From Chromera velia (taxonomy: Eukaryota): 57,050 nt of DNA. Positions 8,813-57,050 of this stretch are shown here, piece after piece. The notes below the pieces were generated by a model. It searched no databases, was not told where the DNA came from, and saw only the letters and a program-made list of their open reading frames with translations. The stretch is taken from contig JAHBMJ010000125.1 of assembly GCA_018398765.1 (NCBI GenBank), positions 1-57,050 of the forward strand, given 5' to 3'. Numbering within the stretch: position 1 is the stretch's first letter; every line of letters starts with the position of its first letter. Position numbers and translations under genes: made by a program.

Positions 8813-8843
<31 letters not shown>

Positions 8844-8950: not shown

Positions 8951-8986
<36 letters not shown>

Positions 8987-9334: not shown

Positions 9335-9382
<48 letters not shown>

Positions 9383-9503
9383 CAGAAAGCAAGAAAGAAA
9401 GAAAGAAAGAAAGAAAGGAAGGAAGGAAGGAAAGAAGGAAAAAAGAAAGAAAGAAAGAAGAAAAAAAAAAAAGGAAGGAAGGAAAGAAAGAAAGAAAGAA
9501 AGC

Positions 9504-9534
<31 letters not shown>

Positions 9535-25014: not shown

Positions 25015-26681
25015 TCAAACAGGAAGAGAGGGGAGAAGCTTGCACTTCTGGTCGTTGTTATCAACACAGATGCCTCCACCTCCGCACTCCTTACAGCTGG
25101 AGCGCTGCCGGCCATGCTCACAGATGCTACTCCCTCCGCACTCCTTGCACTGGAAGCGAATACGACCGTGCTGATAGATGCTCTTGCCTCCGCATTCCTT
25201 GCACTCACATCGTCTCCTACCGTGTTCACAGATGCTCTTTCCTCTGCACTCCTTGCATGAAGAGCGGATTCTTCCATGCTCATAGATGCTCTTCCCTCCA
25301 CACTCCTTGCAACGGTAGCGCTCTCTGCCGTGCTCACAGATGCTCTTCCCTCCGCACTCCTTGCACAGAGAGTGCTGGCAGCCGTGCTGACAAAAACTAC
25401 TTCCTCCGCACTCCTTGCACCTGTGACGCTGACGGCCGTGCTCACAGATACACTTCCCTCCACAATCCTTGCACTGAGAGCGGATTCTTCCGTGCTCACA
25501 GATGCTCTTCCCCCACACTCTTTGCATCTGTGACGCTGACGGCCGTGCTCACAGATACACTTCCCTCCACAATCCTTGCACTGAGAGCGGATTCTTCCGT
25601 GCTCACAGATGCTCTTCCCTCCACACTCCTTGCACCTGTAACGCTGACGGCCATGCTCACAGATGCCCTTCCCTCCACACTCCTTGCACTGAGAGCGCTG
25701 ACGGCCGTACTCACAAATACTCTTCCCTCCGCACTCCTTGCACCTACAGCGAACCCGCCCATGTAAGCAGAGAATCTGCCCGTGGCGGTTCCTCTTCACT
25801 TCTCCTCCCCCCTCCCCCCCCCAGCGAATCACTACAAGACACAACCACTTTCCCTCCCCCGATCGGACCCCCCCTCCTTACACAGAACTCAGAAGAGAGA
25901 CGGGCGCAGTCCGAAACAGACACAGTCAACTGACGCTGCTTCTCTTCACGCATCTGTATCCCCTGCTTCCCCTGCAACACAGCCCCCTCTCCGGCAACAG
26001 AAAAGCCAGACAAGGCATCACACTCGTCCGCCTCAGCTTCAGAGCCAACGATATCTGACCGATGGCGTTTCACTAGAACTTCAACGCCGTGTGTCCTCTG
26101 CCCCTCTTTTTGCTGGCATTCAAGGAGAGGCAGGTGAGAGGAGGACAGAGGGAGGAAGCGAGGGATCCTATTATCAACTTCGGTATCAGCGGGACGTTTA
26201 CAGTCACCCACTAAAGTGGCACAGTCAGAATGCACAACCTCGACATACTCGGTACCTCTTATCAGACTTCTCTCTCCGGACACGCCACCCACTCTGTCAA
26301 AATGAACAGTGTTGTGTATGTCGTGTATGTGCACAGGGTGAGGAACAGTGTCTGATGAGAGACAGCTGTTCTGAAAGGGGGACTGCTGCTGAGGTAAAGA
26401 AAAAGAAGGAGCGACACAGGACACTCTCTCTAAGACGAACTCCTGTCCGCCCTCTCTTCTGTCTAATCGAGGTGCAGAGATCGAATCAGAAAGGGAAGAG
26501 AGACGGCGGCGCTTCGGACCCTCACACACTATACTCACCCCGTCCCCCTCTGTGGGCGTCTCTTGGAAGACGCACTGACTCTCTCTAACCCTTTGACTCG
26601 GATTAGAGACAGGATCACCCTTTCCCATTCCCCCACTCACAGTCTCTTCAATCTCCCCCCCGAAAACATCTGCCCCCCTCA
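25015..26681 (-). pseudogene. 3' half of CBM20/zinc-finger-array gene, type B (~13 CxHGRxRxxCKECGG repeats), frameshifted
   Basis: ADVFGGEIEETVSGG... is collinear with 51277 onward; frameshifts at G-runs near 25810 and 25512. Confidence 0.85.
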
Positions 26682-28329
26682 AACTGACTGTACTGACAAT
26701 TGAAACTTTTGTACTAGAAAGTGACTTTTAATTTTCTATATATCACACTAAATTTTATATAAAAAACTAAGTCTTTAAAGCACTTAGAATGATTCTATTT
26801 ATTGTTTTTTACCTGCATGAAAGTATGAACAACTTTTAAAGATAAGGTTTAATGGGTTTATGGTGTGTATGTTAGAAATTGTTGGACGTGAGTGAGGTAA
26901 AAGAGTTACAGTATATTGATATATCGGGGAGTGATTGCAGACTCCACAGAATCTCTCTGATATGTGACCATGTGTAGTGTAATGCATAAACAAGCTAACT
27001 TTTACTTCTAATGGAATACACCGAATCTGCATACTGATGTAAGGAGGGAGCACACAGTGGACAACCCCCATGAAAGGTAAGAATGAATGTGCGTAAACAG
27101 ATCTGCCGATTTGACACCCACAGAAAGTAGTTCAACCAAACAAATGTTGAGCACTATGACCGTATAAGAGGTAAATGCTTAGCTTCTGAAAGCCTGATCG
27201 ATCCATGGCCTCTAGCTAGAGGGCCTTGCCCACGACCGGCCATCATAGCGTTCTTGTTTTTTCTGGGTGAAGCCCGGCACTGGCCACTGGGTCTTAGTCT
27301 ACCCAGGAGCCCTACCTCCAAATTTTCGTGCAAACAAGAGCTGCGCCTCACTCCCATAACTTCAGATCACCCGAGATTACCAGCTGTAATGCTTTCTCAT
27401 GAAACCTAAGCACCGACAAACGGTCCTCCGAGAAAGGCTCAGTCTGACCTGCAGCACAGATATGCAAAAATTCATAAAGTGGCTCACCTTCTGGCCACCC
27501 AGAGCTGGCCTCCTTATCCAAAAAGCCTTTCCAGCTCATCATCTAGAGCTTGTAAGAGCGCATGCACAGAAGGGATTCAATGGAAGCTTTACTGGGGCAA
27601 CTTCGTAGGCCCCTTTGCGTGGAGACGGGCCGTGCCCTTCGTGATGGAAGATCGAAATTGCCCTCTCAGGGTAACCAGTAGAGTAAATGTCATAAACCCA
27701 ACAAAAAGCAAAGAAGCCAATCCTCTGGGCTTTCGATAAAGCCTACTTTCATTGCTGGAGAGCAAGTCTGTGTGATAGGAGAGAGGCGGCACTAGGTCTT
27801 GCTCTGATTGACTTGAAACATTCGATGGAAAGCCGATTTTGGGAGCCGATTTTAGATTGGCCAACCATGTGATGGCCCCAAAAGGCAAGCTACGCGTTGC
27901 AGGCCAGGGCCCGGCCGGCCACCAAGGCCAAAAAGCACTTCCCGGCTGCGCGCTGACCCATCAAAATGCCGATCTGAAAAATTTTCAGTCAGGTCTTCAG
28001 AAAGTTCTCCTCCACTCAGAAAGTCGGGTCAACAGAATGGGCCTCTATCCACAAAATCTCGTTGTCAAGCGTTCCATTGGATTGTATTGGAAGGCTTGAC
28101 AACGACGAAATCGTGTTCAACTTGTTATTCGAGAACCTCATTTTTGGAGGGGTTACAGATTCCGGAGTTTTGTACCCCTCCGGTATCTGTGTTGGCTAGA
28201 CACCTCTGGTTGCTCGTGGGAGTGGTTGCCTCGGTGCAAAGGAGTTGTCTGACAACTAGAAGGGTTGCCGGACTGGTTTGGGTCGCTCAATCAGGTCAGT
28301 TCGTTTTATGTCGTTCCACCAGCAACAAA

Positions 28330-28399
28330 GGGGGGTAGACCCTCTCGCAGGGGTACGAAACGACCCAATTTCGTACCCCTGCGAGAGGGTCCACCCCCC
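28330..28399. repeat. 31-bp-stem hairpin with 8-nt loop CGACCCAA
   Basis: ggggggtagaccctctcgcaggggtacgaaa / tttcgtacccctgcgagagggtccacccccc, one mismatch. Confidence 0.95.
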
Positions 28400-28769
28400 C
28401 CTCCCAGTGAAGGAATTAAAAAAATCTTGTTTGCAGAGATGAGCTTTCTTGGTGCATGCAGAAGGCTTTGTATGATGTCTGTAAGTGTTCCTGTGTGGTT
28501 GCAACCTGGCCATTGTGGTTGCTGAGCGACTGACCGGTCTGCCCTCGGCAAGGCAAAAAACTGCCGTCTTCCTTTACCTGTGTTGCTCACCTCTGCCCCC
28601 CTCCTCTGCTCTTTGCAGGTCGTGGGTATCCTCCAGGAGATGCTTGTTTTATGTCCTAGTCCTTCTTCAACTCCTCCAGAGGTAGGTCTTTGCATTTTTA
28701 TTAAGGCCGCAGTCTTCAGACTGCGAAAGGGAATAGCGCCCCTACGTGCCGAGCCTATGTTTTTTTCTA

Positions 28770-30700
28770 CCTGCCTGACTGCCTTCGAAATTTCGCCATT
28801 CTTGCCTGCTTGACTGCCCTCTAGCTTTCAGCCTTTCTGTCTGGCTAAATGTCTTCCCAATTTCGGCCTTTCCGCCCGCCCTATTGCCTTCCTAATTTCG
28901 GCCTTTGCCGCGCTCCCAATTTCGGTCTTCCTGCCTGCCCGATTGCCTTCCCAATTTCGGCCTTCTTGCCTACCTGACTGCCTTCCAGAGTTTTGTATTC
29001 CTGCCATGCTGACTGCTTTCCCATTTCGGCCTTCTTGCCTGCCTGACTGCCCTTTAAATTTCGGTCTTTCTGTCTGCTTCAATGCTTTCTAAATTTCAGC
29101 CTTTCTGTCTGCCTGACTGACTTCGCAATTTCGGCCTTCCTGCCTATCCGGTTGCCTTCCCAATTTCGGCTTTCCTGCCTGCCTGTTTGTCTTCCCTATT
29201 TTGGCCTTCCTTCCTGCCCAAGTTTCCTCCTAACGCTTCCTAATTTCGGTCATTCTGCTTGCCCAATGGCCTTCCCAATTTTGTTCTTCCTGCTGGCCCG
29301 ACTGTCTTCCCAAGTTCGGCCTTCTTGTATGTCTAACTGCCTCCCAGAGTTCGTTCTTTCTGCCTACATGCCTGCNNNNNNNNNNNNNNNNNNNNNNNNN
29401 NNNNNNNNNNNNNNNNNNNNNNNNNNNNNNNNNNNNNNNNNNNNNNNNNNNNNNNNNNNNNNNNNNNNNNNNNNNNNNNNNNNNNNNNNNNNNNNNNNNN
29501 NNNNNNNNNNNNNNNNNNNNNNNNNNNNNNNNNNNNNNNNTCCACCAGGGGTACGAAATTGGGTCGTTTCGTACCCCTGCGAGAGGGTCCACCCCCCCCT
29601 CCCAGTGAAGGAATTAAAAAAATCTTGTTTGCAGAGATGAGCTTTCTTGGTGCATGCAGAAGGCTTTGTATGATGTTTGTAAGTGTTCCTGTGTGGTTGC
29701 AACCTGGCCATTGTGGTTGCTGAGCGACTGACCGGTCTGCCCTCGGCAAGGCAAAAAACTGCCGTCTTCCTTTACCTGTGTTGCTCACCTCTGCCCCCCT
29801 CCTCTGCTCTTTGCAGGTCGTGGGTATCCTCCAGGAGATGCTTGTTTTATGTCCTAGTCCTTCTTCAACTCCTCCAGAGGTAGGTCTTTGCATTTTTATT
29901 AAGGCCGCAGTCTTCAGACTGCGAAAGGGAATAGCGCCCCTACGTGCCGAGCCTATGTTTTTTTCTACCTGCCTGACTGCCTTCGAAATTTCGCCATTCT
30001 TGCCTGCTTGACTGCCCTCTAGCTTTCAGCCTTTCTGTCTGGCTAAATGTCTTCCCAATTTCGGCCTTTCCGCCCGCCCTATTGCCTTCCTAATTTCGGC
30101 CTTTGCCGCGCTCCCAATTTCGGTCTTCCTGCCTGCCCGATTGCCTTCCCAATTTCGGCCTTCTTGCCTACCTGACTGCCTTCCAGAGTTTTGTATTCCT
30201 GCCATGCTGACTGCTTTCCCATTTCGGCCTTCTTGCCTGCCTGACTGCCCTTTAAATTTCGGTCTTTCTGTCTGCTTCAATGCTTTCTAAATTTCAGCCT
30301 TTCTGTCTGCCTGACTGACTTCGCAATTTCGGCCTTCCTGCCTATCCGGTTGCCTTCCCAATTTCGGCTTTCCTGCCTGCCTGTTTGTCTTCCCTATTTT
30401 GGCCTTCCTTCCTGCCCAAGTTTCCTCCTAACGCTTCCTAATTTCGGTCATTCTGCTTGCCCAATGGCCTTCCCAATTTTGTTCTTCCTGCTGGCCCGAC
30501 TGTCTTCCCAAGTTCGGCCTTCTTGTATGTCTAACTGCCTCCCAGAGTTCGTTCTTTCTGCCTACATGCCTGCCTTCCAATTTTAGTGTTCTTAGCGGCC
30601 TGACTGCCTTCCAATTTCAGCTTTCTTGCCCGCCTGATTGCCTTCCCAATTTTGGCTTTCCTGCCCGTCCGATTGCTTTCCCAATTTCGGTCTTCCTGCT
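28770..30700 (+). repeat. Degenerate ~35-bp minisatellite (TGCCTTCCCAATTTCGGCCTTCCTGCCTGCCTGAC-like) within a ~1-kb near-identical duplication flanking an N gap
   Basis: Recurrent ccaatttcggc core at 28770-29375 and 29968-30700; 28369-29375 is repeated at 29567-30573. Confidence 0.85.
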
Positions 30701-31249
30701 TTCATGTATTATTCTGATACAAATTAAAGATACAAGTTGTGTTTGCATGCATGCTTTTATGTGTATTCTAGCGATTCGACTGACTTTCTGTTTGTGTGCA
30801 CGTATTTCTGCAGGTAGCGTTCACGGGTGTGTTTGATATATACTGAGATGCCCCCTCCCCCCCCCCCCCCCCCNNNNNNNTACCCCTGACACGCCCGCCG
30901 TTGAGCAGTGCCTCATATGAATTGAAAACAAAACAGTTATGATCATGAAAAGAAATGCTTCAATCAGATCGATTCAGAGCCATTCAGATGCATTTCTTAT
31001 GATGTTTTCATCTTAGCGTTAATTTACGATGATAGGTACCAGACAATTTATGGTTTTAAAAAAATATATACTCTATATATACATTTTTTTATTTCATTTT
31101 TTAAACATCTTACTAAGCTTAAATAGTCTTAAATAAATCATGAAAATCAATTAGTTTAAAGGTTAAACTATCTATTTTAATGTTTTAAAAACTAAATTTT
31201 TCAAAGTCACTTTCCAGTACAAAAGTTTCAATTGTTAGTACAGTCAGTT

Positions 31250-32330
31250 CTCACCCCACCCCCTTCATTAAAGCTACAGGTGCAAATCGAAAAGACTGAT
31301 CAGACCCCCCATCTCTTCTTCTCTCCCCCCTCACCTCACTTTGTCCCTTCTGGAGAAACACAGCTACAGACATACAGGTCTGAGGATGACAACTGGAAAC
31401 AGCAACAGAGTTAGGAGATGCCACCAGAATGCCACCACCACCACCACCACCCTGCTGGCAGTGTTCCGATATGGTCACCCTGTCTGTGGGGCGGGACAAA
31501 TCAGCTTCAGACTGTACACGCTGAGTCATGTCACGAGAGGCAAAAGTCGGAGACGAAGACGAGAGCCTCAGGCCAGGGGGCAGTGCGGAAACGGAAAGCG
31601 GGGCACTCTCAATCGCCGCAGGCAGACCTTTCAAAGTTCCCCACTCCTTCGTCTCCCCCTCCTCCTCCTGTTCCTTCTCACTATCCAATTCTGAGGGGAC
31701 ATAGGGGAGACTGTGCTGTTCGACTTCCTGCTGTGCTGACACCATGTCCTCCCATGTCAACGGAGTCACCTGTGTCCCCCCCTCTCCCCAACGTCCGCCA
31801 AACAACACAAACATACCATCGACAACCTCCACCTCCCGCAGCCCACACCCCAAAGGCTCCCCCCACACGCACCCACGACAGCCCTGACTTTGACCGTCTG
31901 TGGAAGATGCTGCTGAGAGGACTGAGGTGACGGCGGAAGAGTTTTGACAACCATGAAAACCATCTATTTGAGAATCAATGAGGGCAAACTGAAACTGAAG
32001 CTGAGAGCACGCCTTATGACTGAGCGGAAAGGACATCCACACGCCTGGGAAGGCAGGGTTCTTCACTCGATGGAGGGTGATGCCGCGACTCGCGTCCCAC
32101 TCTCCGAGCTCAGAACTGCTCCCAACAACCACCAACATCTACCCCTCCTGAGGCTCCACACCCGTACAAGCAAAAAGCACAACACCCGTCTCCGCCTCCA
32201 CCATCGCGACGAAAAGTGCAGGGAAAGACAAAAACCAACCCTCGACTGATCTCTGCACGCACACGGACAGATCTACAGAGGTCACAGAGCATGCCGGCGT
32301 CAATTGCCGGCCGAAAGCATGAGCTTCCAT
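31250..32330 (-). pseudogene. 5' half of CBM20/zinc-finger-array gene, type B
   Basis: MEAHAF...MVEAETGVVLFACTGVEPQEG*MLVVVGSSSELGEWDASRGITLHRVKNPAFPGVW; TAG at 32139 aligns with CAG in the 50-kb copy. Confidence 0.85.
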
Positions 32331-39513: not shown

Positions 39514-42194
39514 GCATGTACATCTTCCGATAGAGAAAGAGCGAAGGAGAGAGGATGGGAGGAAAGGAGGTCGGAGAAAAAAAAACACGGAGGAAAGAAA
39601 GGAATGAAGAAGGAATCAATAACAGTCAGCACTCCCGGAAAGCAAGTCAATCCACTGACTCACCTCCTCAACGAAGGCCGAGGACGGAGAGGCACATGCA
39701 ATCATCAGACAGAGAGACTTCCCGCCAAACGAATCCATCAACAGCTGCAGACAGACAGACAGAAAGAAAGAAAAAACGTGATCCAGGAAAGTACAAGGAA
39801 TCTGGCAATCAGCGAGCAATAGTGGAAAGATACGCACAAACAAGGAGGTAGATCGTCTTTTTCATTCTCAATGCTCTCTTTCCTGCAAAGGGCCTTCGAT
39901 TCGTGAGAAGTCGATTGCTTCGATCGATCCTTCTCCACCCTTCCATCTCCCTGTACCCCGCCCTGTTCCCCCCTCTCTGTCTCAAAGCACAGATTGACGG
40001 GACTAATTCAGCACTGTTCTTCACAAACATTTAACATTTCTGGAAAAAAAAAAAATCTGCTGAGATGTTCGCGTACCTGAGTCAGCTTTGAATTCCTGAA
40101 GGGGACGTGTGTGTGTCTCTCCTTGACACCCCCGCCCGTCTCCCCTCCCCCAGCACCTGAGGAGAGACACGAGATGACCTGACCCAGTGTGAAGAGAGAC
40201 TTGTTGATCGCCTGGGTCTCCCTCAATGCCGCTGCCCGCCTTGCCTGTGCCTCCTGAGCAGTCTTCAGAGCCCCTTTGTGACTCTCCCAGAGCCCTGTGC
40301 CAGAGGACAGAGACCCCATTCTCTCCCTCGTATCCAGAGACTGGGAGGGAGAAGGAGAGTCTGTGCCTGCCTGGGGGGAGACGGCAGAGACGGCTGCGGC
40401 CTCCTTGAGCCTCTCGGACCCTGCGAGGTCCACGAAGGTCAACTTGCCTGCAGAGGCAGGGGAGGGGGGGGGGAAAGATATAGGAGGACTCTCAGAAGCG
40501 AAAAAGAAAAATGACCGGAAGAAGGCAGGAAAATGTCCCAGCTCCTGAAGTAGACCCAGTCCCCTCCTATGCAGACACAGAACGGTGTGCATCGAAAGAC
40601 GGCACGGCACAACAAGATTGACAAAGAAAACCGTAGACCAAGGAGTAGAGCTTTTGTTTGGAGAGTTCAATGTATGCCAGAAATTGTCGCGTTTTTCGCA
40701 TCAAAAATCAGAGAGGGTACAAGAGCAGCACGAGGGACCAGACGAAGTTTGCAAAGGGGAATAAAGAGGCTGAAGCAGTGAAAGACGGAAAAGACTCGCA
40801 GCGATTCCTCACGAAGTTATGCGACTTTTTTTTTTGACATAATATAGAGAAGAGACAGACAGACAGACCGTGGCGTGGTGGCAAAGGCTGTTGTTTCTCC
40901 TGCTGTTGCTGGTGATTCTTCTTCCCATCTCCGTCTGTCTCCCCAGCAGCAGACCACCTAGGGACCTCTGGGGCCGGTGGCATGGGAAGTATTTCAATCT
41001 CGACAGTCAGGATACAGTGGCTTCGCGAGGAGTCGGAATTTAAATTCGACGCTGCTTGTCTTCTGTTTCTCATTCCTTCTTCAAGAACACCCAAAAGCTC
41101 GGCAGCATTCTCGCATTGTCTACTCTGCAGTCCCTCAACGTAGAATCCATTATGATGGTCCGCGTTGAATCGGACAGGAAGGGACTGCGACTCGTGTCCC
41201 ACCGGTCTCTGAGAAGACGGGTGTGTGAGGAGGTCTGAGACTCTCTCTAAATAAATCTCACACATCGACGCCTTCACACCGTACCGCAACCTTCCTGAAG
41301 CCCCCAACTGTAAAGCGTCTCGAAGCCGATACGCAGCGTCACTTGCTGAAGACGAGGACGAAGAGTGACTTCCGTGCCCCCCCCTCAGACTCTGACCCCC
41401 CCCAGAGGCCGCCTCCAGAGCCGCAAAGAGATAGAATGCAGACCTTGGAATGACCCCGAAAGTAGTCGGAGAGGGCCCAGCACTCCCCGACTCGAGAAGT
41501 GGGGGACCGTCGCCTAGCAACGCACCAGGAAAACACCCCCCCACAGGTGAGCCCTCGTCAAACCCCCTCCCGGCCAGCGTGTACGTCTTTCCGGATCCTG
41601 TCTGGCCGTATGCGATCAGAGTGGCTGCACAAATATGTACACACGTCGTCTGAGAGTCTTGCCTGACCCTGTGGGCCAATTCGACATCACTGTTGCTACA
41701 CGAAGGAAAGACGGACACACAAAAGAAAAGAGAAAGAGGAACCCTGAAACCTCCCCTACTGACCAGAGTACCCTCTCAAGGCTGCATCGATGAGTGGAGT
41801 CTGCAGGCAGGCACACGATGGAACCATGTAGACGGTTTATGATTCACATGAAGGAACATGCAGGGAAAGACTTCATGCGAGGACATGGTTTGAGAAACGC
41901 CTGACTGACCACTCCAGCTTGATGAAAGAACCGTTCTTGTCCGACTTCGGGACCCAGACTCGCATTGAATGCAAAGCGTCTTGAGTAGGGAGGAGTGGCT
42001 GTCAGCACCTCGACAGAGCTTGACGAAACGACTCGCAGGGCCTCATGGTCCCCCCTTGTTGCTTCGGAGTCACTGAAGGGACGCACTCGCAGAACGGCTT
42101 TGATGCGCACACCTCCAGAGTCATTCGGAGTCTTTCCGTCCTTGTTTTGCCTCTTTCCTCCTGAGGGGTCTGAAACACGCCCAACTGAAGACAT
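35978..42194 (-). CDS. Kinesin motor protein, KIF12/kinesin-16-like; exons 42194-41910, 41800-41764, 41624-40869, 40447-40077, 39744-39664, 39064-38964, 38596-~38558, ~38234-35978 (last junctions uncertain)
   Basis: VLRVRP; P-loop [12 protein letters not shown]; switch [14 protein letters not shown]; switch [38 protein letters not shown] and [22 protein letters not shown] resembles KIF12. Confidence 0.9.
39068..39515. repeat. (CA)n microsatellite with assembly gap, in a kinesin intron
   Basis: Direct reading. Confidence 0.95.
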
Positions 42195-45088: not shown

Positions 45089-46450
45089 GGCTTCTTCTAA
45101 CTCAAAGTTACCGAGCGCATCCATAGACCCACAATTGTGAAAGCATGAAGTTTCACAGAAAAGAAAACAAACGATTCAGAATTCCAGGAATGCACAAAAT
45201 GAAACACACTCAAACGCAAACATCGAATGGAATGGGATGGAAGAGAAAAGAGGCGAAAAAAAGAAAGCAAAAGAAAAACAAAAGGGCGGAGACAAATGTC
45301 GGTTGTGACAGGCGCTACCGGAAGCGCTTATCCAAAAAGGAAGACTGCCGACACAGTCCGTCTGCTGAGTGCGCACAGAAGACTTAGTGAAGCATTTCAG
45401 GAAACACAAAACGAAGAAAAATGGAAAGAGGAAAGGAAAGCAAGAGAATGGATTGCATGGGTGAACACATTTCTCCCATGCAATCTGTTCATTGATGTAT
45501 CCAGAGATTCGTCTACATGCTTCGATCGATGACCTCCCTCCCTTCCTTCCCTTCCCTTCCATTATACCCCCTGCCCTCTCTTTCTGCCTTCAAAATCGGT
45601 ACTGCTCATCTCTCCTTGCTGTCTGCTCTTCTTACTGTATGTCGGATGGGGTTTCCCTGCGGATGATGCAGCTCCATTGCTTACTGCCCTTTGGTGCTGA
45701 GACCCTGCATGCATGCATGACCTATCTCTGTCGGTGTTCAAATTCCCCTTAGGCTGCTGCCTTGAGCCGAGACATGAATATGCCCAGAGATGAGTTAATG
45801 AGCACTGCATGACGTCACTAGCTACTCACTGTTACTTTCACAAAAGAAAAGAGAAAGAAAAGGACGGCGCGGTGCACTTCAAACAAATTCATACAGACAT
45901 AAAATAGAATAGGCACCGTCGAGTGGACTTTACCAAACGATATTGAAAAAAAAGGGAAAAGGAGGCAATGGGCCATGAAAGAAAAAGAGTGGCAGCGACC
46001 GAGAGAGAAGGGAACGCCCAAAAGAGAGAAATGGCCTGCCCAACAAGAGAGACAAAACAAGTTGCATGACATTGTCCGGAAGAGGCGATCGAATGAAGAA
46101 AACAAAATTCAATTCTTGAGCGAAATGGGCACACGCGCTCAAACCGGAAGAGCAAAATTCCTCAACACGATTCATGAATGCATCAGGAGTGCACACACAC
46201 ACACGCTCCACCCCTCTCATATGCACTGCCTCATGCATGCAGACTGCATGTGCCCATCGAAACTTCATTCCCTCCTTCTTTGCACTCAGAGAAAAAGACC
46301 GAAGCCCATCCCAAAAGAGAACCTCCCATCCTTCAGGCAAAGCGCACGAAGGAACAAAATGACTGGATTCTCGGAACACAGTCACAGAGAGAGAAAAGGG
46401 GGATGGGAACAGAGACGGAGGGTGTTGAAAGCCACAAGCGGTTAATCGAT
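45089..46450. repeat. Duplicated 3' flank of type-A zinc-finger genes; second copy ~54420-55875
   Basis: ggcttcttc-aactcaaag...gaaagccacaagcg is collinear in both places over ~1.4 kb. Confidence 0.92.
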
Positions 46451-48729
46451 CAAAAGGGAGAAGGAAGAGAGGAGACCAGCTTGCACTCCTTACACTGGGA
46501 GCGCTCTCGGCCGTGCTGACAGAGGCCACTCCCTCCACACTCCTTGCATCTATAGCGAATGCGACCGTGCTCACAAACACTTTTCCCTCCGCACTCCTTG
46601 CACTCACATCGCCTCCTGCTGTGCTCACAAATGCTCCTGCCTCCGCATTCCTTGCACTGAGAGCGCAGACGGCCGTGCTCACAGATGCTTTTCCCTCCGC
46701 ACTCCTTGCACTTATAGCGCTCACGGCCGTGCTCACAGATGCCCTGCCCTCCGCATTCCTTGCACTCATTTCGCCTCCGGCCGTGCTCACAGATTCCCTT
46801 CCCGCCGCACTCCTTGCACCTGTGACGGGCACGGCCGTGCTCACAGATCCCCTTTCCTCCGCACTCCTTGCAGCCGTGACGCTGACGGCCGTGCTCACAA
46901 ATGCCACTTCCCGCGCACTCCTTGCACTGAGAGCGCTGACGGCCGTGCTCACAAATGCTACTTCCCCCGCACTCCTTGCATCTATGACGCTGACGGCCGT
47001 GCTCACAAATCCCACTTCCCCCGCACTCCTTGCATCTGTGACGCTGACGGTCGTGCTCACAAATGCTCTTGCCTCCGCACTGCTTACATGAAGAGCGGAT
47101 TCTGCCGTGCTCACAAATGCTCTTTCCTCCGCACTCCTTGCACTTGCTTCGCTCCCTTCCGTGCTCACAAATGCCCTTCCCTCCGCACTCCTTGCAAAGA
47201 GACCGCTGCCGACCATGCTCACAGATGCCCTTTCCTCCACACTACTTGCACAGAGAGCGCTGACGGCCATGCTCACAGATGCCCTTGCCTCCGCACTCCT
47301 TGCACCTGTGACGCTCTCTACCGTGCTCACAAATGCTCCCCCCTCCACATTCCTTGCACCTATAGCGAACCCGCCCATGAGAGCAGAGAATCTGCCCATG
47401 GCGGTTCCTCTTCACTCCTCCTCCCCCCTTCCCCCCCCGCGAATCACTGCGCGACACTCCCACTTTCGCTTCACCGATCGGACCCCCCTTCCCTACACAG
47501 AACTCAGAAGAGAGACGGGCGGAGTCCCAAACAGACACAGTCAACCGACGCTGCTTCTCTTCCCGCATCACACCCCCCTCCTTCCCCTGCAACACAGCCC
47601 CCTCTCCGGCAACAGGAAAGCCAGACAAGGCATGGCACTCGTCGGCCTCAGCCTCAGCGTCAGAGAAGGAAGCCTCTGACCTGAGACGCTTCAGTGAATC
47701 CGCAACACCCTGCGTCCTCGGCCACTCTTCCCTCTGTCCATCCAGTGTGCGATCATGTGAAAGGTGGCGGGTGGGAGGCAAAGGACGGGAGCGAGGCCGC
47801 ATGCTGTCAGACTCGGTGTCAGCGGGAGCTTTGCTGCCTCCCACTGAATCGGCACCTTCGGCACACACGTCCTCTTCCCCCCCCTCTACTCTCGTTGTCT
47901 TCTGTCTCTCTGGCTCACTTTGACTGTTGTTGCCCCCATCCCCTTCCATTTCAACTCGACTGTCAGGATGTTGTCCTTCGAACTCGGCGGCCGATTGAGG
48001 GGGATGCATAGACAGAGATGACGCGTGTTGACCCTCATCGGTTCTTGCCAACATTTCTTCGGAGTCTCTTTGGGTCCTCTCTTCTGAGGAAACCGGATAC
48101 GCACTCTCTGACTGAGGGCAAGACAGACCACCACGTTCAGCGACCGTCTCACTCTGCGGGTGGTCGGTCTGTCCGTTCGGGTGCAGAGGGATCAGTCCGA
48201 GCTGCACACTCTCAGGAACCCCCCATTCCACCAAAATGCCGACCATCTCTCTCTTCTGCTGTTCTTCTCCCCCCTCTTCTGCACCGATATGTATTGTGTT
48301 GTGCCCCCTTTCTCCGACCGAACAGCGGTCAACAGGAGGAAGCCCATCAACGAGACAAACCGCGCGGAAGTCACCACCGTTCAGCGGCTCTAGACACACG
48401 GGGTTGTCGGGGTCTGACACCTCAACCTCGTTGCTGCTGTTCGGAACTGCAACCAGTCGGAAGTTCAATTTCGACACTCCCACCCTTCCAACCTTTCTGT
48501 CTGTCTCCACTTCACTCTCGAAATCTCCAGAGACACCCATCGTGCACTCTGACAGATTGACTTCCACCTCACTCGACACCCACCACGGATGCACACACGG
48601 TGCAGGTGTCAGAGACAACGCACCACCCAAATCCCACCCACCCAGCTCAGCACATTCTCCCACCACCACAACGCGCTGATTCTCTCGCACCTCCGGGCAA
48701 TGCGCAACAAAGGCGATCAACCCCTTCAT
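46450..48729 (-). pseudogene. CBM20/zinc-finger-array gene, type A (~17 repeats); 760 codons with a single internal TAG at 47242-47244
   Basis: MKGLIAFVAHCPEVRENQRVVVVGECAELGGWDLGGALSLTPAPCVHPWW is CBM20-like; the array continues in frame beyond the TAG, which replaces the GAG of CKEC, to ...LVSSLPSPF*. Confidence 0.85.
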
Positions 48730-48966
48730 TGTGCCAACGCAGATATATATGTGTCGGTAGACGGCTTCAACTTCAACCGAGGAGAGAAGGAGGGGTCGAT
48801 CTCGAAGGACACACGTCCCGCTGGTTGTCAATGAATGCCTTTGATCGCGATGTCTATCTCGATCGATCGATTGACACCTGCAAAGAAGGAGGAGGAGGAG
48901 AAGAAGAAGAAGAAGAAGAACAAGAAAAAGAAGCAAGCAAGCAAGCAAAAATTTAGGCTGACAAAG

Positions 48967-49117
48967 CCACAAAGGGTAAAGGCTTACAAAGCAGCAAACC
49001 GTTTGTTCCAGCGAGCATAATCACACGCCAACAACAACAACAAGAACTTCAAGAAGCACGCAAAAATTAACGCTGACAGACCCACAAAGGGTAAGGCTTA
49101 CAAAGCAGGAAACCGTT
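48967..49117 (+). repeat. Local direct duplication of ~37 bp
   Basis: ccacaaagggtaa(a)ggcttacaaagcag-aaaccgtt at ~48967 and ~49082. Confidence 0.85.
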
Positions 49118-50314
49118 AGGACCAAAGAGCACAATCACTCATACGCCAAAGCCAGGAAGGAAAAGACCCACTCAGGCGATTCACCAGCAAGCACTGCCTC
49201 TACTTCACTTCGAGTTGTCAGCCGATTCAACCGCGATGACCGCCTCTCGACCACAAGTCGCAGATCAATGGACTAGCTCACACAATGAAGGAGACCGATG
49301 CTCTCAGGCGAGTCTGCCCTCTGCGATCGAGAAGTGATCCCCACACGGCTGGTCACCCCAACAAAGCTGTCAGCTGTGCAGGATCGAAAAGACAGCTGTA
49401 TCAATCATCGAGCCTGGCAGTAAGAAAGCAGTTCGATCTGCTTGAGACAGAACTCATGCGCGAACAGTATTTGAACGTTGAGCTTTCATGGTATGAGCCA
49501 TCCTCAGACTTGATCTGACAGCATCATCGAATGCATGAGGTTCCGAAGTGACAGTTCAGAAGATTTCAGGAGTTCAATTTCTCGTGTCCCTTAATTTCTG
49601 CAATGCATGCCAGGATATGCCAGGTCCCGCGCGGGCAAAAAAAATGCCATTGCATCGCGCAATCATGCATCGCGCGTTTCGATCGGAGAAAGTTTCTGCA
49701 TGACGTGCACTGCAGAGACAACGCGATTCTGACATGATTCTGACAAACAGAATCAAACTCAATGTGTGGCTGTGCAATGATCGGCCTCAGAAAGATTGCT
49801 TTCTGGTCGTCGTGCATGTGGAGCTCTCAGCTGATTCGGCCAAAGTCAGATCTGCAGTATACGCAAGATTCGCGGCAAGAACTCATGAAGACATTGAAGA
49901 GCACAACATGAGACCAGCAACGACTTCTTCGCCTTCGTGCTCCTTCTCTCTTTGATCAGTGCAAGTGCTAATCAAGAGGCCCAGATCGAGCGGGCGTTCT
50001 CCGCTTTCTGCTCTGACTGTCGGTAGTCACTGTGTGAAAGTTACCGGAAAAGGTTTGGACCTCGAGACATTCCCACTCTTTCTCTTGTGTCAGACAGTCA
50101 GCAGTTTCGACTTTTGTTCGAGAAGTCAGAGGGGGCCGGGAAGCCGTTGAAAGCATCCACGTGCGCTCACCTTTGTTCTGGCGTGCTCACTTCTGAAGCT
50201 TTGGCGTTTGTCCCCCGGACAGAATCAAGTCAGTGCATGGGTGGAGTTGAAATGCACGAGTTGAATCTCGAGCGAGGAAGACGTGGGAGTTGGTTGTGTC
50301 AACTGCTCTACATT

Positions 50315-53000
50315 GATAGAAGCTCGTGCTTTGGGCCGGCAACTGTGACGTTGTGCTTTTTGCTTGTACGGGTGTGGAGCCTCGGGAGGGGCAGACGCTG
50401 GTGGTTGTTGGTTGCAGCTCTGAGCTCGGACGGTGGGACGCGAGTCGCGGCATCGCCCTTCATCGAGTGAAGAACCCTGCCTTCTCAGACGTGTGGATGT
50501 CCTTTCCGCTCAGTCATAAGGCGTGCTCTCAGCTTCAGTTTCAGTTTGCCCTCGTTGATTCTCAAATAGATGGTTGTCATGGTTGTCAGAACTCTTCCGC
50601 CGTCACCTCAGCCCTCTCAGCAGCATCTCCCACAGACGGTCGAAGTCAGGACTGTCGTGGGTGCGTGTGGGGGGAGCCTTTGGGGTGTGGACTGCGGGAG
50701 GTGGAGGTTGTCGGTGGTGGGTTTGTGTTGTTTGGTGGACGTTGGGGAGAGGGGGGGACACAGGTGACTCCGTTGACATGGGAGGACATGGTGTCAGCAC
50801 AGCAGGAACTCGAACAGCACAGTCTCCCCTATGTCCCCTCAGAGTTGGATAGTGAGAAGGAACAGGAGGGGGAGGGGGGGGAGACGAAAGACTGGGGAAC
50901 CTTGGAAGGTGCGCCTGCGGAGATCGAGAGTGCCCCGCTTTCCGTTTCCGCACTGCCCCCTGGCCTGTCGTCTTCTTCTCCGACTTTTGCCTCTCATGAC
51001 ATGACTCAGCGTGTACAGTCTGAAGCTGATTTGTCCCGCCCCACAGACAGGGTGACCGTAACGGGAAAGCAGACTGGTGGTGGTGGTGGCATTCTGGTGG
51101 TCTCTCCTGCCTCTGCTGCTGGTTCCAGTTGTCATCCTCCGGCCTCTGTGTCTGCAGCTGTGTTTCTCCAGAAGGGACAAAGTGAGGTGAGGGGGGAGAG
51201 AAGAGGAGATGGGGGGTCTGATCAGTCTTTTCGATTTGCACCTGCAGCTCTGATGAAGGGGAGTGGGGGGAAGAGGGCAGATGTATTCGGGGGGGAGATT
51301 GAAGAGACTGTGAGTGGGGGAATGGGAGAGGGTGATCCTGTCTCTAATCCGAGTCAAAGGGTTAGAGAGAGTCAGTGCGTCTTGCAAGAGACGCCCACAG
51401 AGGGGGACGGGGTGAGTGCAGTGTGTGAGGGTCTGAAGCGCCGCCGTCTCTCTTCCCTTTCTGTTTCGATCTCTGCACCTCGATTAGACAGAAGAGTGGG
51501 CGGACAGGCCTTCGTCTCAGAGAGAGTGTCCTCTGTCTCTCCCTTTCTGTCTTTATCTCCGCAGCAGTCCTCCCTTCAGAAGAGCTGTCTCTCGTCACAC
51601 ACCGTTCCTCACCCCTTTCGCATACACGACACACACATCACACTTGATCTTGACAGAGTGGGTGGCGTGTCCGGAGAGAGAAGTCTGAAAAGAGGTACCG
51701 AGTATGACGAGGATGTGTATTCTGACCGTGCCACTTTAGTGGGAGACAGACAAGATTTGGTTGGCGCCAAGCTTTGCAGTAGAAGCCCTCGCTCCCCCCC
51801 CCAGAGTCTGTCCTCCACCCACCTGCTTGAATGCCAGCGAGGAGAGGGGCACAGGACACAAGGCGTTGCCGTCCCTCTGAAGCGTCGCAGGTCAGAGGCT
51901 GCCCTCTCTGAGGCTGAGGCTGACGAGTGCGATGTCTTGTCTGGCTTTCCTGTTGCCGGAGAGGGGGTTACTGTGCGGGGGGAGAAGGGATGTGTGGTGC
52001 GGGAAAAGAAGCAGCGTCGGTTGACTGTGTCTGTTTCGGACTAAGCCCGTCTCTCTTCTGAGTCCTGTGTAGGGAGGGGGGGTCTGATCGGTGGAGAGGA
52101 AGTGGGAGTGTCGCGCAATGATTCGCTTGGTGAGGTCGGGGGAGGAGAAGTGAAGAGGAACCGCCATGGGCAGATTCTGTGCTTGCATGGGCGGGTTCGA
52201 TACAGGTGCAAGGAGTGTGGAGGGGGGGGTATTTGTGAGCACGGCCGTCAGCGTCACAGATGCAAGGAGTGCGGTGGAAATGGCATTTGTGAGCACGGCC
52301 GTCAGCGTCACAGCTGCAAGAATTGCGGAGGGAAGGGCATTTGTGAGCACGGAAGGGAGCGAAGCAAGTGCAAAGAGTGCGGAGGGAAGGGCATATGTGA
52401 GCACGGAAGAATCCGCTCTCAGTGCAAGGAGTGCGGAGGGAAGGGCATCTGTGAGCACGGCAGAAGACGATCTGAGTGCAGGGAATGCGGAGGCAAGAGC
52501 ATGTGTGAGCACGGCAGAAGACGACGTCAGTGCAAGGAGTGCGGGGCAAGAGCATCTGTGAGCACGGGCGGCAGCGCTCTGTTTGCAAGGAGTGCGGAGG
52601 AAAGAGCATTTGTGAGCACGGCAGAAGACGACGTGAGTGCAAGGAGTGCGGAGGGAAGGGCATTTGTGAGCACGGCCATCAGCGTCACAGGTGCAAGGAG
52701 TGTGGAGGCGGAAGCATCTGCGTCCACGGCAGAGAGCGCTACTACTGCAAGGACTGTGGAGGCAGCAGCATTTGTGAGCATCGCCGTCAGCGTCACAGGT
52801 GCAAGGAGTGCGGAGGAAGGCAGATCTGTGAGCACGGCAGAGAGCGCTACCTTTGCAAGGAGTGCGGGGGTGCAGGTATATGTGAGCACGGCCGACAGCG
52901 CTACTACTGCAAGGACTGTAGAGGCAGGGGCAGCTGTGTTAACCGAAATGACCGCCGACACTGTCATGAGTGCAAGCTTATCTCTTCGTTTCCTCATTGA
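50315..53000 (+). pseudogene. CBM20/zinc-finger-array gene, type B (~14 repeats plus a degenerate one); lost start, TAA at 52042, frameshift near 52545
   Basis: VVLFACTGVEPREGQTLVVVGCSSELGRWDASRG..VW; ORFs 50326-52044 and 52102- are in the same frame; the array finishes in ORF 52530-53000. Confidence 0.88.
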
Positions 53001-53059
53001 TTCCTTTGGTCTTTTTTCCTCCGTCTGCATGTCCAGACCTTCCTTCCTTTTGATCTCTT

Positions 53060-53098
<39 letters not shown>

Positions 53099-55874
53099 AT
53101 TTGCAGATCGGATCGATGAATCATTCATTTCATGCATATGGGGGTCGATCGGGGCTTCCCTTCGTCCCCGCGCTCTTTCTGCTTGTCGACACTCTCTTTC
53201 TCTCTCAAAAGCAATGAATCAATCGATGCCGCCCCGCCCCTCCAACTCTGGGTCCTCTGAGGGGATCCAGGCGAGGTGCATGTGCATGCAGAGAGGACGG
53301 GAGGGGAGGGGGGTGCAGAAAGAGACGCTCTGCTCCGGACGTCTTGGTTGTCTGCATGGGAGTCTGAATGCCTCCATGCAGCTGCACGTGTCTTTCATTC
53401 TGTTCATACATACATATATCTGTAGACCATGCAGGCACGTCCTTGTTTTCTCTCCTGATTGATTGTATGCACGCATTTTCATATGAACGAAACGCTCTGT
53501 ATGATGGCAACGTACGGTGCGACAGCGGGTGGTTCTGCCAGATAGACATCGATTGATGGACGAAAAGCCCGAGGCAGCATGCATTGCTCTTTTTTCACGT
53601 GGGGCTTCCTACATCGAAACGCCCTCCCCCGGTGGTGCATACGTGGATAGATGATGGTTGGACGAGGTCTGTTTGAGGAACGAGTCGACCGATGTAGGCT
53701 TGTCTTTCCATGTTCCTTTCCATCTGTGGGTACTATATTGACACGTAGTGTGCGGGTCCGCCTGTTAGTCGATCAATGTTTGAACGAATCCGATAGCAAG
53801 TTTACCGGTTGATTGAGATCGGGGTTGACGCATGATCTTCTATGCACTTCTTATGTTACTAGTAGTATCTAGAGTATGCTAGGTAGCATGCTAGCTATTA
53901 CTGTGGCATGTTCCTTTTACTTAAAATTATTGAGAGACTTTCTAGCATTAGTTGTTCTACTTTTAACGGCCTCTTGTATACGTATATATTCTTATCATCT
54001 AGCTTATCATCAAGTGAGTCTAAGATGACATAACCTAATTTTAAATTTATAGTCCATCCTATATCAAATTGATGGTTTCATTATTGTGGTATAAGATTAT
54101 TGACATGAGCAGATTCTAGACGAAAAGAGGTATAGTGCTACGTATAGTGCTGCTAAAATTTAAGTGCATTGACTTGAAGTTAGTTTAGTATATCCAGTAA
54201 TTCATTCAACAATTTTTTTTTTATGCTTTTGAATTGAATTTGAATTGAAACTTTCACTACTATCACTAGTAAATGATTATTACTCCACTCCAATTTTGTA
54301 GTGTATTCTTTTCTAGGTTTTTATTTTTCTTTTACTTCAAAGTTTTTATCTAGATTTTTATTTCGAGGAAATTGAATCAGAAAATAGCTGACGTGAGAGC
54401 TAGCGTTAGACTCTAGCTTTGGCTTCTTCCAACTCAAAGAGACCGAGCGCATCTCATGCGCATCTATAAAGTTGTAGTATAAACCCACAATTCTAGCAAC
54501 AATTGTGAAAGCATGCAGCTATAGGCATGCAGTAACACTCCAGTTTCACAGAAAAGAAAACAGACAATTCAGAGTTTCAAGAATGCACAAAATGAAACAC
54601 ACTCAAACGCAAACATCGAATGGAATGGGATGGAAGAGAAAAGAGGCGAAAAAAAGAAAGAAAAAGCAAAACAAAAGGGCGGAGACAAATGTCGGTTGTG
54701 ACAGGCGCTACCGGAAGCGCTTATCCAAAAAGGAAGACTGCCGACACAGTCCGTATGCTGAGTGCGCATAGAAGACTTAGTGAAGCATTTCAGGAAACAC
54801 AAAACGAAGAAAAATGGAAAGAGGAAAGGAAAGCAACAGAATGGATTGCATGGGTGAACACTTTTCTCCCATGCAATCTGTTCATTGATGTCTCCAGAGA
54901 TTCGTCTACATGCTTCGATCGATCACCTCCCTTCCTCCCCTTCCATTATACCCCCTCCCCTTTCTTTCTGCCTTCAAAATCGGTACTGCTCATCTCTCCT
55001 TGCTGTCTGCTCTTCTTGCTGTATCTCGGGAGGGATTTCCCTGCAGATGATGCACCTCCACTGCTTTCTGCCCTTTGGTGCTAAGGCCCTGCATGCATGC
55101 ATGACCTAGCTCTGTCGCTGTTCAAATTCCCCTTAGGCTGCTGCCTTGAGCCGAGACATGAATAGGCCCATGCAGAGATGAGTGCATGAGCACTGACGTC
55201 ACACGGTACTCACTGTTGCTTCCACAAAAGAGAAGAGAAAGAAAAAGACGGTGCAGTGCATTTCAAACAAACTCATACAGACATAAAATGGAATACGAAC
55301 CGTCTGGTGGACTTTACCAAACGATTTAAGAAAAAGGAAAAGGAGGCAATGGACCATGAAAGAAAAAGAGTGGCAGCGACCGAGAGCGAAAGGAACGCCC
55401 AAAAGAGAGAAACGGCCTGCCCAACAAGAGAGAAAAAACAAGTTGAGTGACATTGTCCGAAAGAGGCGATCGAATGAAGAAAACAAAATTCAATTCTTGA
55501 GCGAAATGGGCACACGCGCTCAAACCGGAAGAGCAAAATTCCTCAANNNNNNNNNNNNNNNNNNNNNNNNNNNNNNACGATTCATGAATGCATCAGGAGT
55601 GCACACACACACGTTCCACCCCTCTCATGTGCACTGCCTCATGCATGCAGACTGCATGTGCCCATCGAAACTTCATTCCCTCCTTCTTTGCACTCAGAGA
55701 AAAAGACCGAAGCCCATCATCTCAAGTACATCGACCAAAAAAGAACCTCCCATCCTTTGGGCAAAGTGTATGAAAGAACAAAATGACGGAGTTCTCGGCA
55801 CACAGTCACAGAGAGAGAGAATGGGAGATGGGAAGAGAGACGGAGGGTGTTGAAAGCCACAAGCGATTGATCGA

Positions 55875-57050
55875 TCAAAAGGGAGAAGGAAGAGAGGAGA
55901 CCTGCTTGCACTCCTTACACTGGGAGTGCTGACTGTCGTGCCGACAAATGCCCTGCCCTCCGCAGTCTTTGCATTTTGAGCGCTCACGGCCGTGCTGACA
56001 GAGGCTACTCCCACACTCCTTGCATCTATAGCGAATGCGACCGTGCTGACAGATGCTCTTGCCTCCACAATCCTTGCACTCACATCGCCTCCTGCCGTGC
56101 TCACAAATGCTGTTGCCTCCGCACTCCTTACACTGAGAGCGCTGGCGGCCGTGCTGACAGATGCTCTTGCCTCCACACTCCTTGCACTGAGAGCGAATGC
56201 GGCCATGCTCGCAGATGCTTTTCCCTCCGCACTCCTTGCACCTGTGACGCTCACGGCCGTGCTCACAAATGCCCTTCCCTCCGCACGCTTTACACTGAAA
56301 GCGCTGACGGCCGTGCTCGCAAATGCTCTTGCCTCCGCACTCCTTGCATCTATAGCGAATGCGACCGTGCTGACAGATGTTCTTCCCTCCACACTCCTTG
56401 CACAGACATCGCCTCCTGCCGTGCTCACAAATGCTCCCACCTCCACACTCCTTGCACTTAGAGCGCTGACGGCCGTGCTCACAAATGCTCTTGCCTCCGC
56501 ACTCCTTGCACTGAGAGCGGATTCTTCCGTGCTCACATATGCCCTTCCCTCCGCACTCCTTGCACTGAGAGCGCTGGCGGCCGTGCTGACAGACACCCTT
56601 TCCTCCGCACTCTTTGCACCTGTGACGCTGACGGCCGTGCTCACAAATGCCACTTTCCCCGCACTCCTTGCATCCGTGACGCTGACGGCCGTGCTCACAA
56701 ACGCTCCCACCTCCACACTCCTTGCACCTGTATCGAACGCGCCCATGCACGCACAGAATCTGCCCATGGCGGTTCCTCTTCACTTCCCCCCCCCCATCCC
56801 CCCCCTGCGAATTACTGCCACCGATCGGACCCCCCCTCCCCACACAGGACTCAGAAAAGAGACGGGCGGAGTCCGAAACAGACACAGTCAACCGACGCTG
56901 CTTCTCTTCCCGCATCACACCCCCCTCCTTCCCCTGCAAAGCAACCCCCTCTCCGGCAACAGGAAAGCCAGACAAGGCATCGCACTCGTCAGCCTCAGCC
57001 TCAGCGTCAGAGAAGGAAGCCTCTGACCTGCGACGCTTCAGAGGAAGGGT
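55875..57050 (-). CDS. 3' part of a type-A zinc-finger-array gene (16 repeats), open to the window edge
   Basis: Uninterrupted frame TLPLKRRRSEASF...KRNRHGQILCVHGRVRYRCKECGG...; 5' part lies outside the window. Confidence 0.88.
   Translation of the reverse strand, partial: TLPLKRRRSEASFSDAEAEADECDALSGFPVAGEGVALQGKEGGVMREEKQRRLTVSVSDSARLFSESCVGRGGPIGGSNSQGGDGGGEVKRNRHGQILCVHGRVRYRCKECGGGSVCEHGRQRHGCKECGESGICEHGRQRHRCKECGGKGVCQHGRQRSQCKECGGKGICEHGRIRSQCKECGGKSICEHGRQRSKCKECGGGSICEHGRRRCLCKECGGKNICQHGRIRYRCKECGGKSICEHGRQRFQCKACGGKGICEHGRERHRCKECGGKSICEHGRIRSQCKECGGKSICQHGRQRSQCKECGGNSICEHGRRRCECKDCGGKSICQHGRIRYRCKECGSSLCQHGRERSKCKDCGGQGICRHDSQHSQCKECKQVSSLPSPF

What the first reader, a model, noticed from the sequence alone, without database searches (positions are those of the whole stretch)
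46450..57050. CBM20-NLS-tandem zinc-repeat family with a hypervariable code: candidate modular nucleic-acid-recognition system
Seen: four paralogues (25015-32330, 46450-48729, 50315-53000, 55875-edge). The three whose 5' ends are visible have an N-terminal CBM20-like domain. All have a disordered linker with basic NLS-like motifs (e.g. PLKRRRS, PKRRRLSS), a fixed leader KRNRHGQILC, then 13-17 repeats of C-E-H-G-R-x-R-x-x-C-K-E-C-G-G-x-x-I. The scaffold is nearly invariant, while the x-R-x-x segment draws on a small vocabulary (QRHR, QRSQ, IRSQ, IRYR, ERSK, RRCE, ERYY) in a different order in each copy. Known: KRAB-ZNF, PRDM9, TALE and PPR proteins use this effector-plus-shuffled-array logic, and CBM20 normally binds starch. 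Inference: a rapidly turning-over, possibly programmable DNA/RNA-binding family, perhaps targeting TEs, with a repurposed CBM20.
Basis: partly seen in the sequence, partly recalled or inferred. Interest (0 to 1): 0.85.

Follow-up and report, generated by a model that had tools for sequence, protein, structure and literature searches.

The report
Alga's nuclease-free viral zinc-repeat arrays
A Chromera-type alga carries dozens of fast-turning-over genes (three of the four here are broken) that join a starch-binding-like domain to a chain of 18-residue predicted zinc-binding repeats shared with likely selfish nucleases of giant viruses, where each repeat may read two DNA letters, so these are likely a small, rewritable class of DNA-binding proteins, with binding and targets still untested.

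Summary
The architecture is real. Four paralogues have a CBM20-like head, a long linker with basic motifs, a fixed leader and 13-17 repeats of C-x-H-x6-C-x-x-C, and positions 6, 8 and 9 vary on a purified scaffold. The family has at least 46 further Chromera velia members, many frameshifted. The repeat has no Pfam or PDB match but occurs in thousands of proteins, mostly giant-virus genes fused to a restriction-fold nuclease and often next to the capsid gene. With a simple chemical code (R=G, Q=A, I/L/V=T, D/E=C; two bases per repeat, read C-to-N), 6 of 19 capsid-adjacent array clusters point to the nearer capsid-gene end (1.1 expected; 4 of 17 without the two that suggested the code). Several other tests were blank, and only R=G is well supported. 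No Chromera target was found. Starch site 1 looks degenerate. Positive selection and transposon targeting are not shown. The scan noted the viral family before on other DNA, and one note reached the same two-base reading.

The parts
25015..32204 (-). Copy 1 (head subfamily A), broken. Start by homology at 32204; an upstream in-frame ATG lies at 32330.
   Evidence: start matches intact Chromera paralogues
31926..32135 (-). Copy 1 CBM20-like match, preceded by an in-frame TAG at 32139-32141
   Evidence: (E 3.8e-6)
26682..31249 (.). 4,568-bp DNA-transposon-like insertion in the copy 1 linker; 50-bp terminal inverted repeats 94% alike, 4-bp target duplication
25069..25796 (-). Copy 1 leader and 13 repeats; 1-nt frameshift in the unit at 25553; exact duplication of a repeat pair
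46450..48729 (-). Copy 2 (head subfamily B), broken by a premature stop
   Evidence: the database protein of this gene is 495 aa and ends at that stop
48205..48729 (-). Copy 2 CBM20-like head (Pfam match 48568-48696)
46468..47412 (-). Copy 2 leader and 17 repeats; TAG at 47242-47244 in repeat 3
50320..53000 (+). Copy 3 (subfamily A), broken: start codon lost by a deletion near 50350, TAA at 52042-52044, frameshift in unit 52504-52556
50353..50565 (+). Copy 3 CBM20-like match
   Evidence: E 6e-8; 1ac0, E 0.005
52153..52934 (+). Copy 3 leader and 14 repeats, followed by a degenerate end unit
55875..57050 (-). Copy 4: open frame up to the window edge; head not visible
55893..56780 (-). Copy 4 leader and 16 repeats (one in-frame 3-nt deletion); AlphaFold mean pLDDT 84
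45149..46449 (.). Downstream flank shared with copy 4 (from 54542 to the copy 4 gene end): duplication took about 1.3 kb of flank along

Best explanation
These genes belong to an expanded Chromera family, many of whose copies are broken, that joins a CBM20-like head to an array of 18-residue predicted zinc-binding repeats which is also found, fused to a predicted nuclease, in giant viruses; intact members likely act as non-cutting, sequence-specific DNA-binding proteins whose target would be rewritten as the arrays change. Steps. (1) Shown: the head, a near-neutral linker, the leader and a purified repeat scaffold with variable positions 6, 8 and 9. (2) Shown: arrays change much faster than their flanks and copies die often. 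(3) Shown by sequence, with the fold predicted: the same repeat aims a restriction-fold nuclease in giant viruses. (4) Inferred, moderate support: in those viruses each repeat reads two bases, antiparallel, position 9 then position 6, and R=G is the firm part. (5) Inferred: the Chromera arrays keep this chemistry (92% of position-6 and 67% of position-9 residues fall in the four coded classes), giving 16-34-bp sites. (6) Speculative: the CBM20 sandwich serves as a protein-interaction or effector module, and the turnover reflects changing targets such as transposons or integrated viral DNA.
For: Scaffold ligand and Gly/Arg/Lys positions have pN/pS 0-0.12 (0.2-0.47 at positions 2, 5, 12), against about 1 at 6/8/9. 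Four dissimilar residues (Q, I, E, R) cover 95% of position 6 in 49 window units, and Q, I, R, E are also the top four in 820 viral units. Copies 2 and 4 share flanks up to 97% alike, yet their arrays align only at the ends. 28 of 28 Chromera arrays are distinct. 86 of the top 120 homologues carry a C-terminal PD..E.DE motif; its predicted fold best matches Holliday-junction resolvase, Bax1 and BspD6I (E 5e-3 to 2e-2). 63 of 171 viral loci hold the major capsid gene within 3 kb. Code tests: near-end hits 6 of 19 against 1.08 expected (p 4e-4), and 4 of 17 (p 0.013) without the discovery families; ranked first of 216 code/layout pairs. Allele-level near-end versus far-end match: p 4e-4 versus 0.42 for 7 direct neighbours, 0.0095 versus 0.19 without discovery families. 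Positions 6/8/9 are kept slightly better between related viral arrays (0.32 vs 0.25, CI of difference 0.02-0.14, 23 pairs). In other long proteins the array is fused to Chromo, SET, Myb and SWIM domains.
Against: No binding data and no Chromera target: 0 of 13 arrays beat shuffles in the window, and the genome was not available. Blank or weak viral tests: own flanks, 84 arrays, no signal in 12 layouts; first allele test Fisher p 0.48; trained likelihood beaten by 1 of 12 shuffles; non-capsid neighbours 3 of 34 at p<0.05; own alleles no worse than random (65 of 110 mismatches vs 64 expected). Three other code/layout pairs also gave 6 hits, and p rises to 0.058 when one related family is also dropped. 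At invariant columns R=G held in 27 of 28, but aliphatic=T in only 4 of 7 and Q=A in 3 of 6 (sites were anchored by the code). Positions 16/17 are retained as well as 6/8/9. 3 of 4 copies here are broken, and 25 of 34 models lack a complete in-frame array.
Confidence: 0.55

Rival explanations
1. The family is largely a non-adaptive expansion. A few ancestral genes had a function, most copies are decaying duplicates, and positions 6/8/9 vary because they are exposed and the arrays recombine, not because they encode targets.
For: 3 of 4 copies here are broken; 25 of 34 models lack a complete array; pN/pS between paralogues is 0.69-0.96 in head and linker; all-pair pN/pS at 6/8/9 is about 1.
Against: The scaffold is strongly purified. 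Position 6 uses four chemically unlike residues shared with distant AT-rich viruses. Viral arrays point to the near end of the adjacent capsid gene.
Confidence: 0.25
2. The arrays bind RNA or proteins rather than double-stranded DNA in Chromera, for instance as cytoplasmic adaptors.
For: No nuclease or known chromatin domain is present in these genes; basic Cys/His repeats can bind RNA (general knowledge, recalled); localisation is untested.
Against: The homologous arrays sit on DNA-nuclease folds, GIY-type T5orf172, Chromo, SET and Myb domains; the linkers hold basic NLS-like motifs.
Confidence: 0.1
3. The CBM20 head still binds starch or glucans, and the proteins couple carbon storage to gene control or sit on starch granules.
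For: Pfam and Atlas support the CBM20 fold; the tryptophan of the LGxW motif is invariant in 15 aligned heads.
Against: PMC9069913 names W543, K578 and W590 as the key residues of site 1. Subfamily A has Gln at the K578 place. Profile matches end at position 66-84 of 97 in intact subfamily A heads (87 in broken copy 1) and 52-60 in subfamily B, and no WE..NR-type motif (recalled) is visible. Site 2 was not assessed.
Confidence: 0.1

Closest known systems
KRAB zinc-finger genes (recalled, no call)
   Same: N-terminal module plus a long tandem zinc array, clustered paralogues, birth-and-death with many pseudogenes, variation at fixed contact positions
   Different: No KRAB or C2H2 match. The unit is an 18-aa C-x-H-x6-C-x-x-C with a predicted hairpin plus helical turn, not the 28-aa beta-beta-alpha finger. 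The head is CBM20-like. No repression or transposon target is shown.
TALE and PRDM9 arrays (recalled, no call)
   Same: Near-identical repeats with a few variable residues and array rewriting by duplication and loss
   Different: Unrelated repeat; three variable positions, predicted two bases per repeat; units differ by 3-11 of 54 nt from their nearest neighbour except one exact duplicate pair; no SET domain in these genes
I-Bth0305I / EDxHD (Vsr-like) homing endonucleases (PMC3239194, passages read)
   Same: Applies to the viral relatives: an N-terminal repeated DNA-binding part plus a C-terminal restriction-fold nuclease with an E.DE..H motif, beside a conserved gene
   Different: I-Bth0305I uses NUMOD repeats, not zinc repeats. 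The Chromera genes have no nuclease. The fold search listed other restriction-fold enzymes first.
CBM20 starch-binding domains (glucoamylase 1ac0, laforin 4rkk)
   Same: LGxW motif and fold-level similarity
   Different: Site-1 Lys replaced in subfamily A and the second Trp not found; fused to a zinc array rather than to an enzyme
MIGE elements of giant viruses (10.1101/299784, passages read)
   Same: Multi-copy viral zinc-finger ORFs
   Different: Described as a single ORF with a zinc-finger motif behind a short non-coding piece; no sequence link was tested here

Membership tests
CBM20 (PF00686) | Profile match above the curated cut-off | tested here: met
   Copies 1 and 3 above 23.3 bits, copy 2 below (21.5); 8 subfamily-A paralogues above and 6 subfamily-B ones just below; Atlas supports subfamily B
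CBM20 (PF00686) | Starch site 1 residues W543, K578, W590 | tested here: not met
   W543 place kept; K578 place is Gln in subfamily A; W590 region unmatched. Residues from PMC9069913. Subfamily B C-terminal register judged by eye only.
CBM20 (PF00686) | Binds starch | not testable with these tools
   needs an assay
KRAB-ZNF | KRAB domain and C2H2 fingers | tested here: not met
   No such Pfam match in 9 frames; the array model has no PDB match
KRAB-ZNF (works like) | Birth-and-death expansion with array divergence | tested here: met
KRAB-ZNF (works like) | Binds and represses transposons | not testable with these tools
   No genome held; window scan blank
TALE/PRDM9-type coded arrays | Residue-to-base code at fixed positions | tested here: inconclusive
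   Supportive in viral relatives; blank; no Chromera target
PRDM9-type arrays | Positive selection at contact residues | tested here: inconclusive
   pN/pS 0.96-1.09 with saturated synonymous sites
Homing endonuclease (window genes) | Nuclease domain | tested here: not met
   All four arrays end within about 10-25 residues of a stop
EDxHD homing endonucleases (viral relatives) | Vsr-like fold with the composite EDxHD motif | tested here: inconclusive
   Motif-like E.DE..H seen; restriction-type fold at E 5e-3 or weaker, with Vsr and 3r3p not among the rows shown

The most novel reading that the evidence does not exclude
An alga related to apicomplexans has independently built a KRAB-zinc-finger-like defence repertoire from the targeting arm of giant-virus homing nucleases. 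Each 18-residue repeat reads two base pairs by a near four-letter code at positions 9 and 6, the nuclease has been replaced by a repurposed CBM20 effector, and dozens of arrays are rewritten to track transposons or viral DNA. At 9 residues per base this would be about as compact as C2H2 fingers and far more compact than TALEs.
Probability: 0.25. Interest if true: 0.92.

Novelty: new variant of a known kind. Interest (0 to 1): 0.7.

Why it matters
The repeat has no Pfam family and no solved relative, yet it occurs in thousands of proteins, and the viral members give explicit predicted targets that one SELEX or cleavage experiment can test. If the two-base reading holds, it is a new compact modular DNA-binding scaffold. 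Its nuclease-free expansion in Chromera would be an independent origin of the effector-plus-shuffled-array logic outside animals, with a carbohydrate-binding fold as the unexpected head.

Tried and rejected
Whole-genome copy count: no genome held. Summed contig depth over the heads is 600-670 against 21-49 on unique pieces in one DNA run; this fits many copies but is not a copy number. Expression: no RNA holder is on record. Runs guessed to be RNA cover the genes at 90% likeness but little of copies 2 and 3 at 98%, which is not evidence either way. An intron removing the copy-3 TAA: the candidate acceptor is not conserved in copies 1 and 4, so it was rejected by eye. Pfam, PHROGs and PDB for the repeat: no naming match; the viral structure library gave only viral proteins; the Atlas gave unnamed clusters. 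Code tests that were blank. One- and three-base layouts and other reading orders gave 0-2 hits. Association of repeat words with scaffold haplotypes: p 0.18. Complex prediction was not used, since it cannot take DNA as the partner. Literature searches that found no description of this repeat or family: (listings only; the library lacks most subscription papers, and bioRxiv supplements were closed and not tried).
Full report
Observation. Copies 1 and 3 share one head type and copies 2 and 4 share flanks; copies 2 and 3 are head to head. The arrays are strict 54-nt repeats of 13, 17, 14 and 16 units (two copy-1 units with Tyr for the first Cys were added by hand). For entropy I dropped the first and last unit of each array and three units with indels, leaving 49. 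Positions 6, 8 and 9 carry 2.07, 2.15 and 2.72 bits, the three invariant cysteines 0, and positions 16/17 carry 1.7/1.45. The heads match Pfam CBM_20 above the cut-off in copies 1 and 3 and below it in copy 2; the Atlas places the copy-2 head with CBM20 by features and by structure.

Three copies are broken. Copy 1 has a stop in the head, a 4,568-bp insertion with 50-bp inverted ends and a 4-bp target duplication, and a frameshift in the array. Copy 2 has a stop in repeat 3. Copy 3 has lost its start and has a stop before the array and a frameshift in repeat 7. A 179-nt contig of a DNA run spans the copy-3 frameshift with no gap. At 90% likeness contigs with an extra base there also appear, so a paralogue or allele with an open frame exists. 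No bridging contig was listed for the two stops, and no other letter was listed there either. Head and linker pN/pS between paralogues is 0.69-0.96, as expected of pseudogenes and disordered linkers. The repeat scaffold is purified, while positions 6/8/9 give about 1 with saturated synonymous sites, which does not show positive selection.

The family. The copy-2 head and linker find 34 proteins: the window's own and 33 named Chromera velia, so the window is most likely from that species. Of the 34, 9 have an in-frame array closed by the end cap, and 6 of these also have the full head; the rest are truncated or frameshifted gene models, some perhaps from assembly or annotation errors. A search among longer proteins adds 19 Chromera array proteins, 13 with the same leader. 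All 28 arrays compared are distinct. Copies 2 and 4 share 2.6 kb at 83% overall and up to 97% in the flank, but their arrays align only at the first unit and near the end. This is birth-and-death with fast array rewriting.

The head. PMC9069913 (passages read) names W543, K578 and W590 as the key residues of starch site 1. The first Trp is invariant in 15 aligned heads. Subfamily A has Gln where glucoamylase has the Lys. The profile match stops before the last Trp in both subfamilies. Site 1 is therefore probably degenerate; what the domain does instead is unknown.

The repeat. It has no Pfam name and no solved relative by Foldseek or the wide aligner, though AlphaFold models it confidently (mean pLDDT 84; a hairpin and a short helical turn per unit, with positions 6-9 adjacent). 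Zinc binding is inferred from the four ligands. It is widespread: 4,535 hits among 7,994 scored candidates and 5,428 representatives at 50% clustering (repeats inflate weak hits). 86 of the top 120 end in a domain with a PD..E.DE motif, whose predicted fold best matches restriction-type nucleases at E 5e-3 to 2e-2. These genes occur in giant-virus contigs, and 63 of the first 171 loci hold the major capsid gene within 3 kb, as free-standing homing endonucleases would. The motif recalls the EDxHD family (PMC3239194, passages read). Among longer proteins only 13 of 113 carry the nuclease motif, and single cases carry Chromo, SET, Myb or SWIM domains.

Is there a code? By eye, two capsid-adjacent array families read C-to-N at two bases per repeat (position 9, then 6), with R=G, Q=A, I/L/V=T and D/E=C, spelled the capsid start. 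I then tested this. Against own flanks there was no signal (84 arrays, 12 layouts), and the first allele test was blank (p 0.48). Against a profile of 43 capsid alleles, 5 of 18 groups had their best site at the start (0.54 expected; the other 11 layouts gave 0-2; the window was chosen after the fact). With leave-one-family-out training, five groups lying 5' of the gene pointed to its start and two lying 3' pointed to a site near its end (Fisher p 0.015), but the total likelihood was beaten by 1 of 12 shuffles. With the untrained code, 154 arrays of six or more repeats fell into 116 clusters. Of the 19 capsid-adjacent clusters, 6 hit the nearer end (1.08 expected, p 4e-4; one side label corrected by hand). 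Without the discovery families it was 4 of 17 (p 0.013), and 3 of 16 (p 0.058) without a further related one. Of 97 non-adjacent clusters, 9 hit either end. The chemical code ranked first of 216 code/layout pairs, though three others also reached 6 hits. With real alleles, near-end versus far-end order tests gave p 4e-4 versus 0.42 (7 direct neighbours), 0.0095 versus 0.19 without discovery families, and 0.0012 versus 0.79 for all 14. One array fetched after the code was fixed matches an existing allele at 10 of 11 specified bases (L272). Against: non-capsid neighbours gave 3 of 34 at p<0.05; own alleles were not worse than random (65 of 110 vs 64); and only R=G is firm (27 of 28; aliphatic=T 4 of 7; Q=A 3 of 6). 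Positions 6/8/9 are retained a little better than other variable positions between related arrays (23 pairs; six hand-picked pairs), but positions 16/17 are retained as well. I put the two-base reading in the viruses at about 60%.

Back to Chromera. In 144 repeats from 13 arrays, 92% of position-6 and 67% of position-9 residues belong to the four coded classes, and every base is represented. No array found a site in the window better than shuffles (lowest p 0.14), and the genome could not be scanned. DNA binding is therefore inferred from homology, basic scaffold residues and NLS-like motifs, and transposon targeting remains a guess. The direction of transfer between viruses and algae was not tested.

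Novelty and verdict. Eight searches found no paper on this repeat or family (listings only); the MIGE review (10.1101/299784, passages read) describes a different element. KRAB-ZNF, TALE and PRDM9 comparisons are recalled. The logic is known, while the repeat, its probable code and the CBM20 head are not described in what I could search: a new variant of a known kind, interest 0.7, held down by the broken state of these copies and the lack of any binding data.

Noticed in passing
window 26682-31249: AT-rich-ended element with 50-bp terminal inverted repeats and a 4-bp target duplication inside copy 1; superfamily not identified
   Followed up: partly
window 28348-30700: Inside that element: short inverted repeats near 28350-28375 and 29545-29570, a degenerate 35-nt tandem array, and a 1,028-nt 99% duplication across an N gap (possible nested element or assembly overlap)
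   Followed up: no
window 40708-41775 (-): Exon of a kinesin motor gene (Pfam E 5e-32)
   Followed up: partly
window 11-3525: Four to five copies of an 82-nt motif and a 359-nt inverted repeat (2574-2932 / 3190-3525), perhaps a small non-autonomous element
   Followed up: no
window 8290-9588: 1.3-kb AAGA microsatellite that creates long spurious ORFs
   Followed up: no
L016, L018, L020, L026, L027, L028, L047 (flanks): Different repeat-nuclease arrays occupy the same slot in a viral element between a DDE_3 (IS630-like) transposase and an unnamed 620-aa ORF that recalls Fanzor/TnpB (recalled; no Pfam match)
   Followed up: partly
L082, L102, L043 (capsid gene start): The capsid N-terminus is interrupted next to the repeat nuclease, suggesting the nuclease gene sits in an intron or insertion at the gene start
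   Followed up: no
L050-L055, L078, L129, L298: Viruses carrying one nuclease family have an extra Thr codon after the capsid start Met
   Followed up: partly
P0172, P0261, P0179, P0242, P0029, P0093: The same repeat array is fused to Chromo, SET, Myb, SWIM, T5orf172 and IBR domains in other organisms
   Followed up: no
P0164, P0176, P0186, P0195, P0231, P0239: Chromera also has array proteins without the CBM20 head or the standard leader
   Followed up: no
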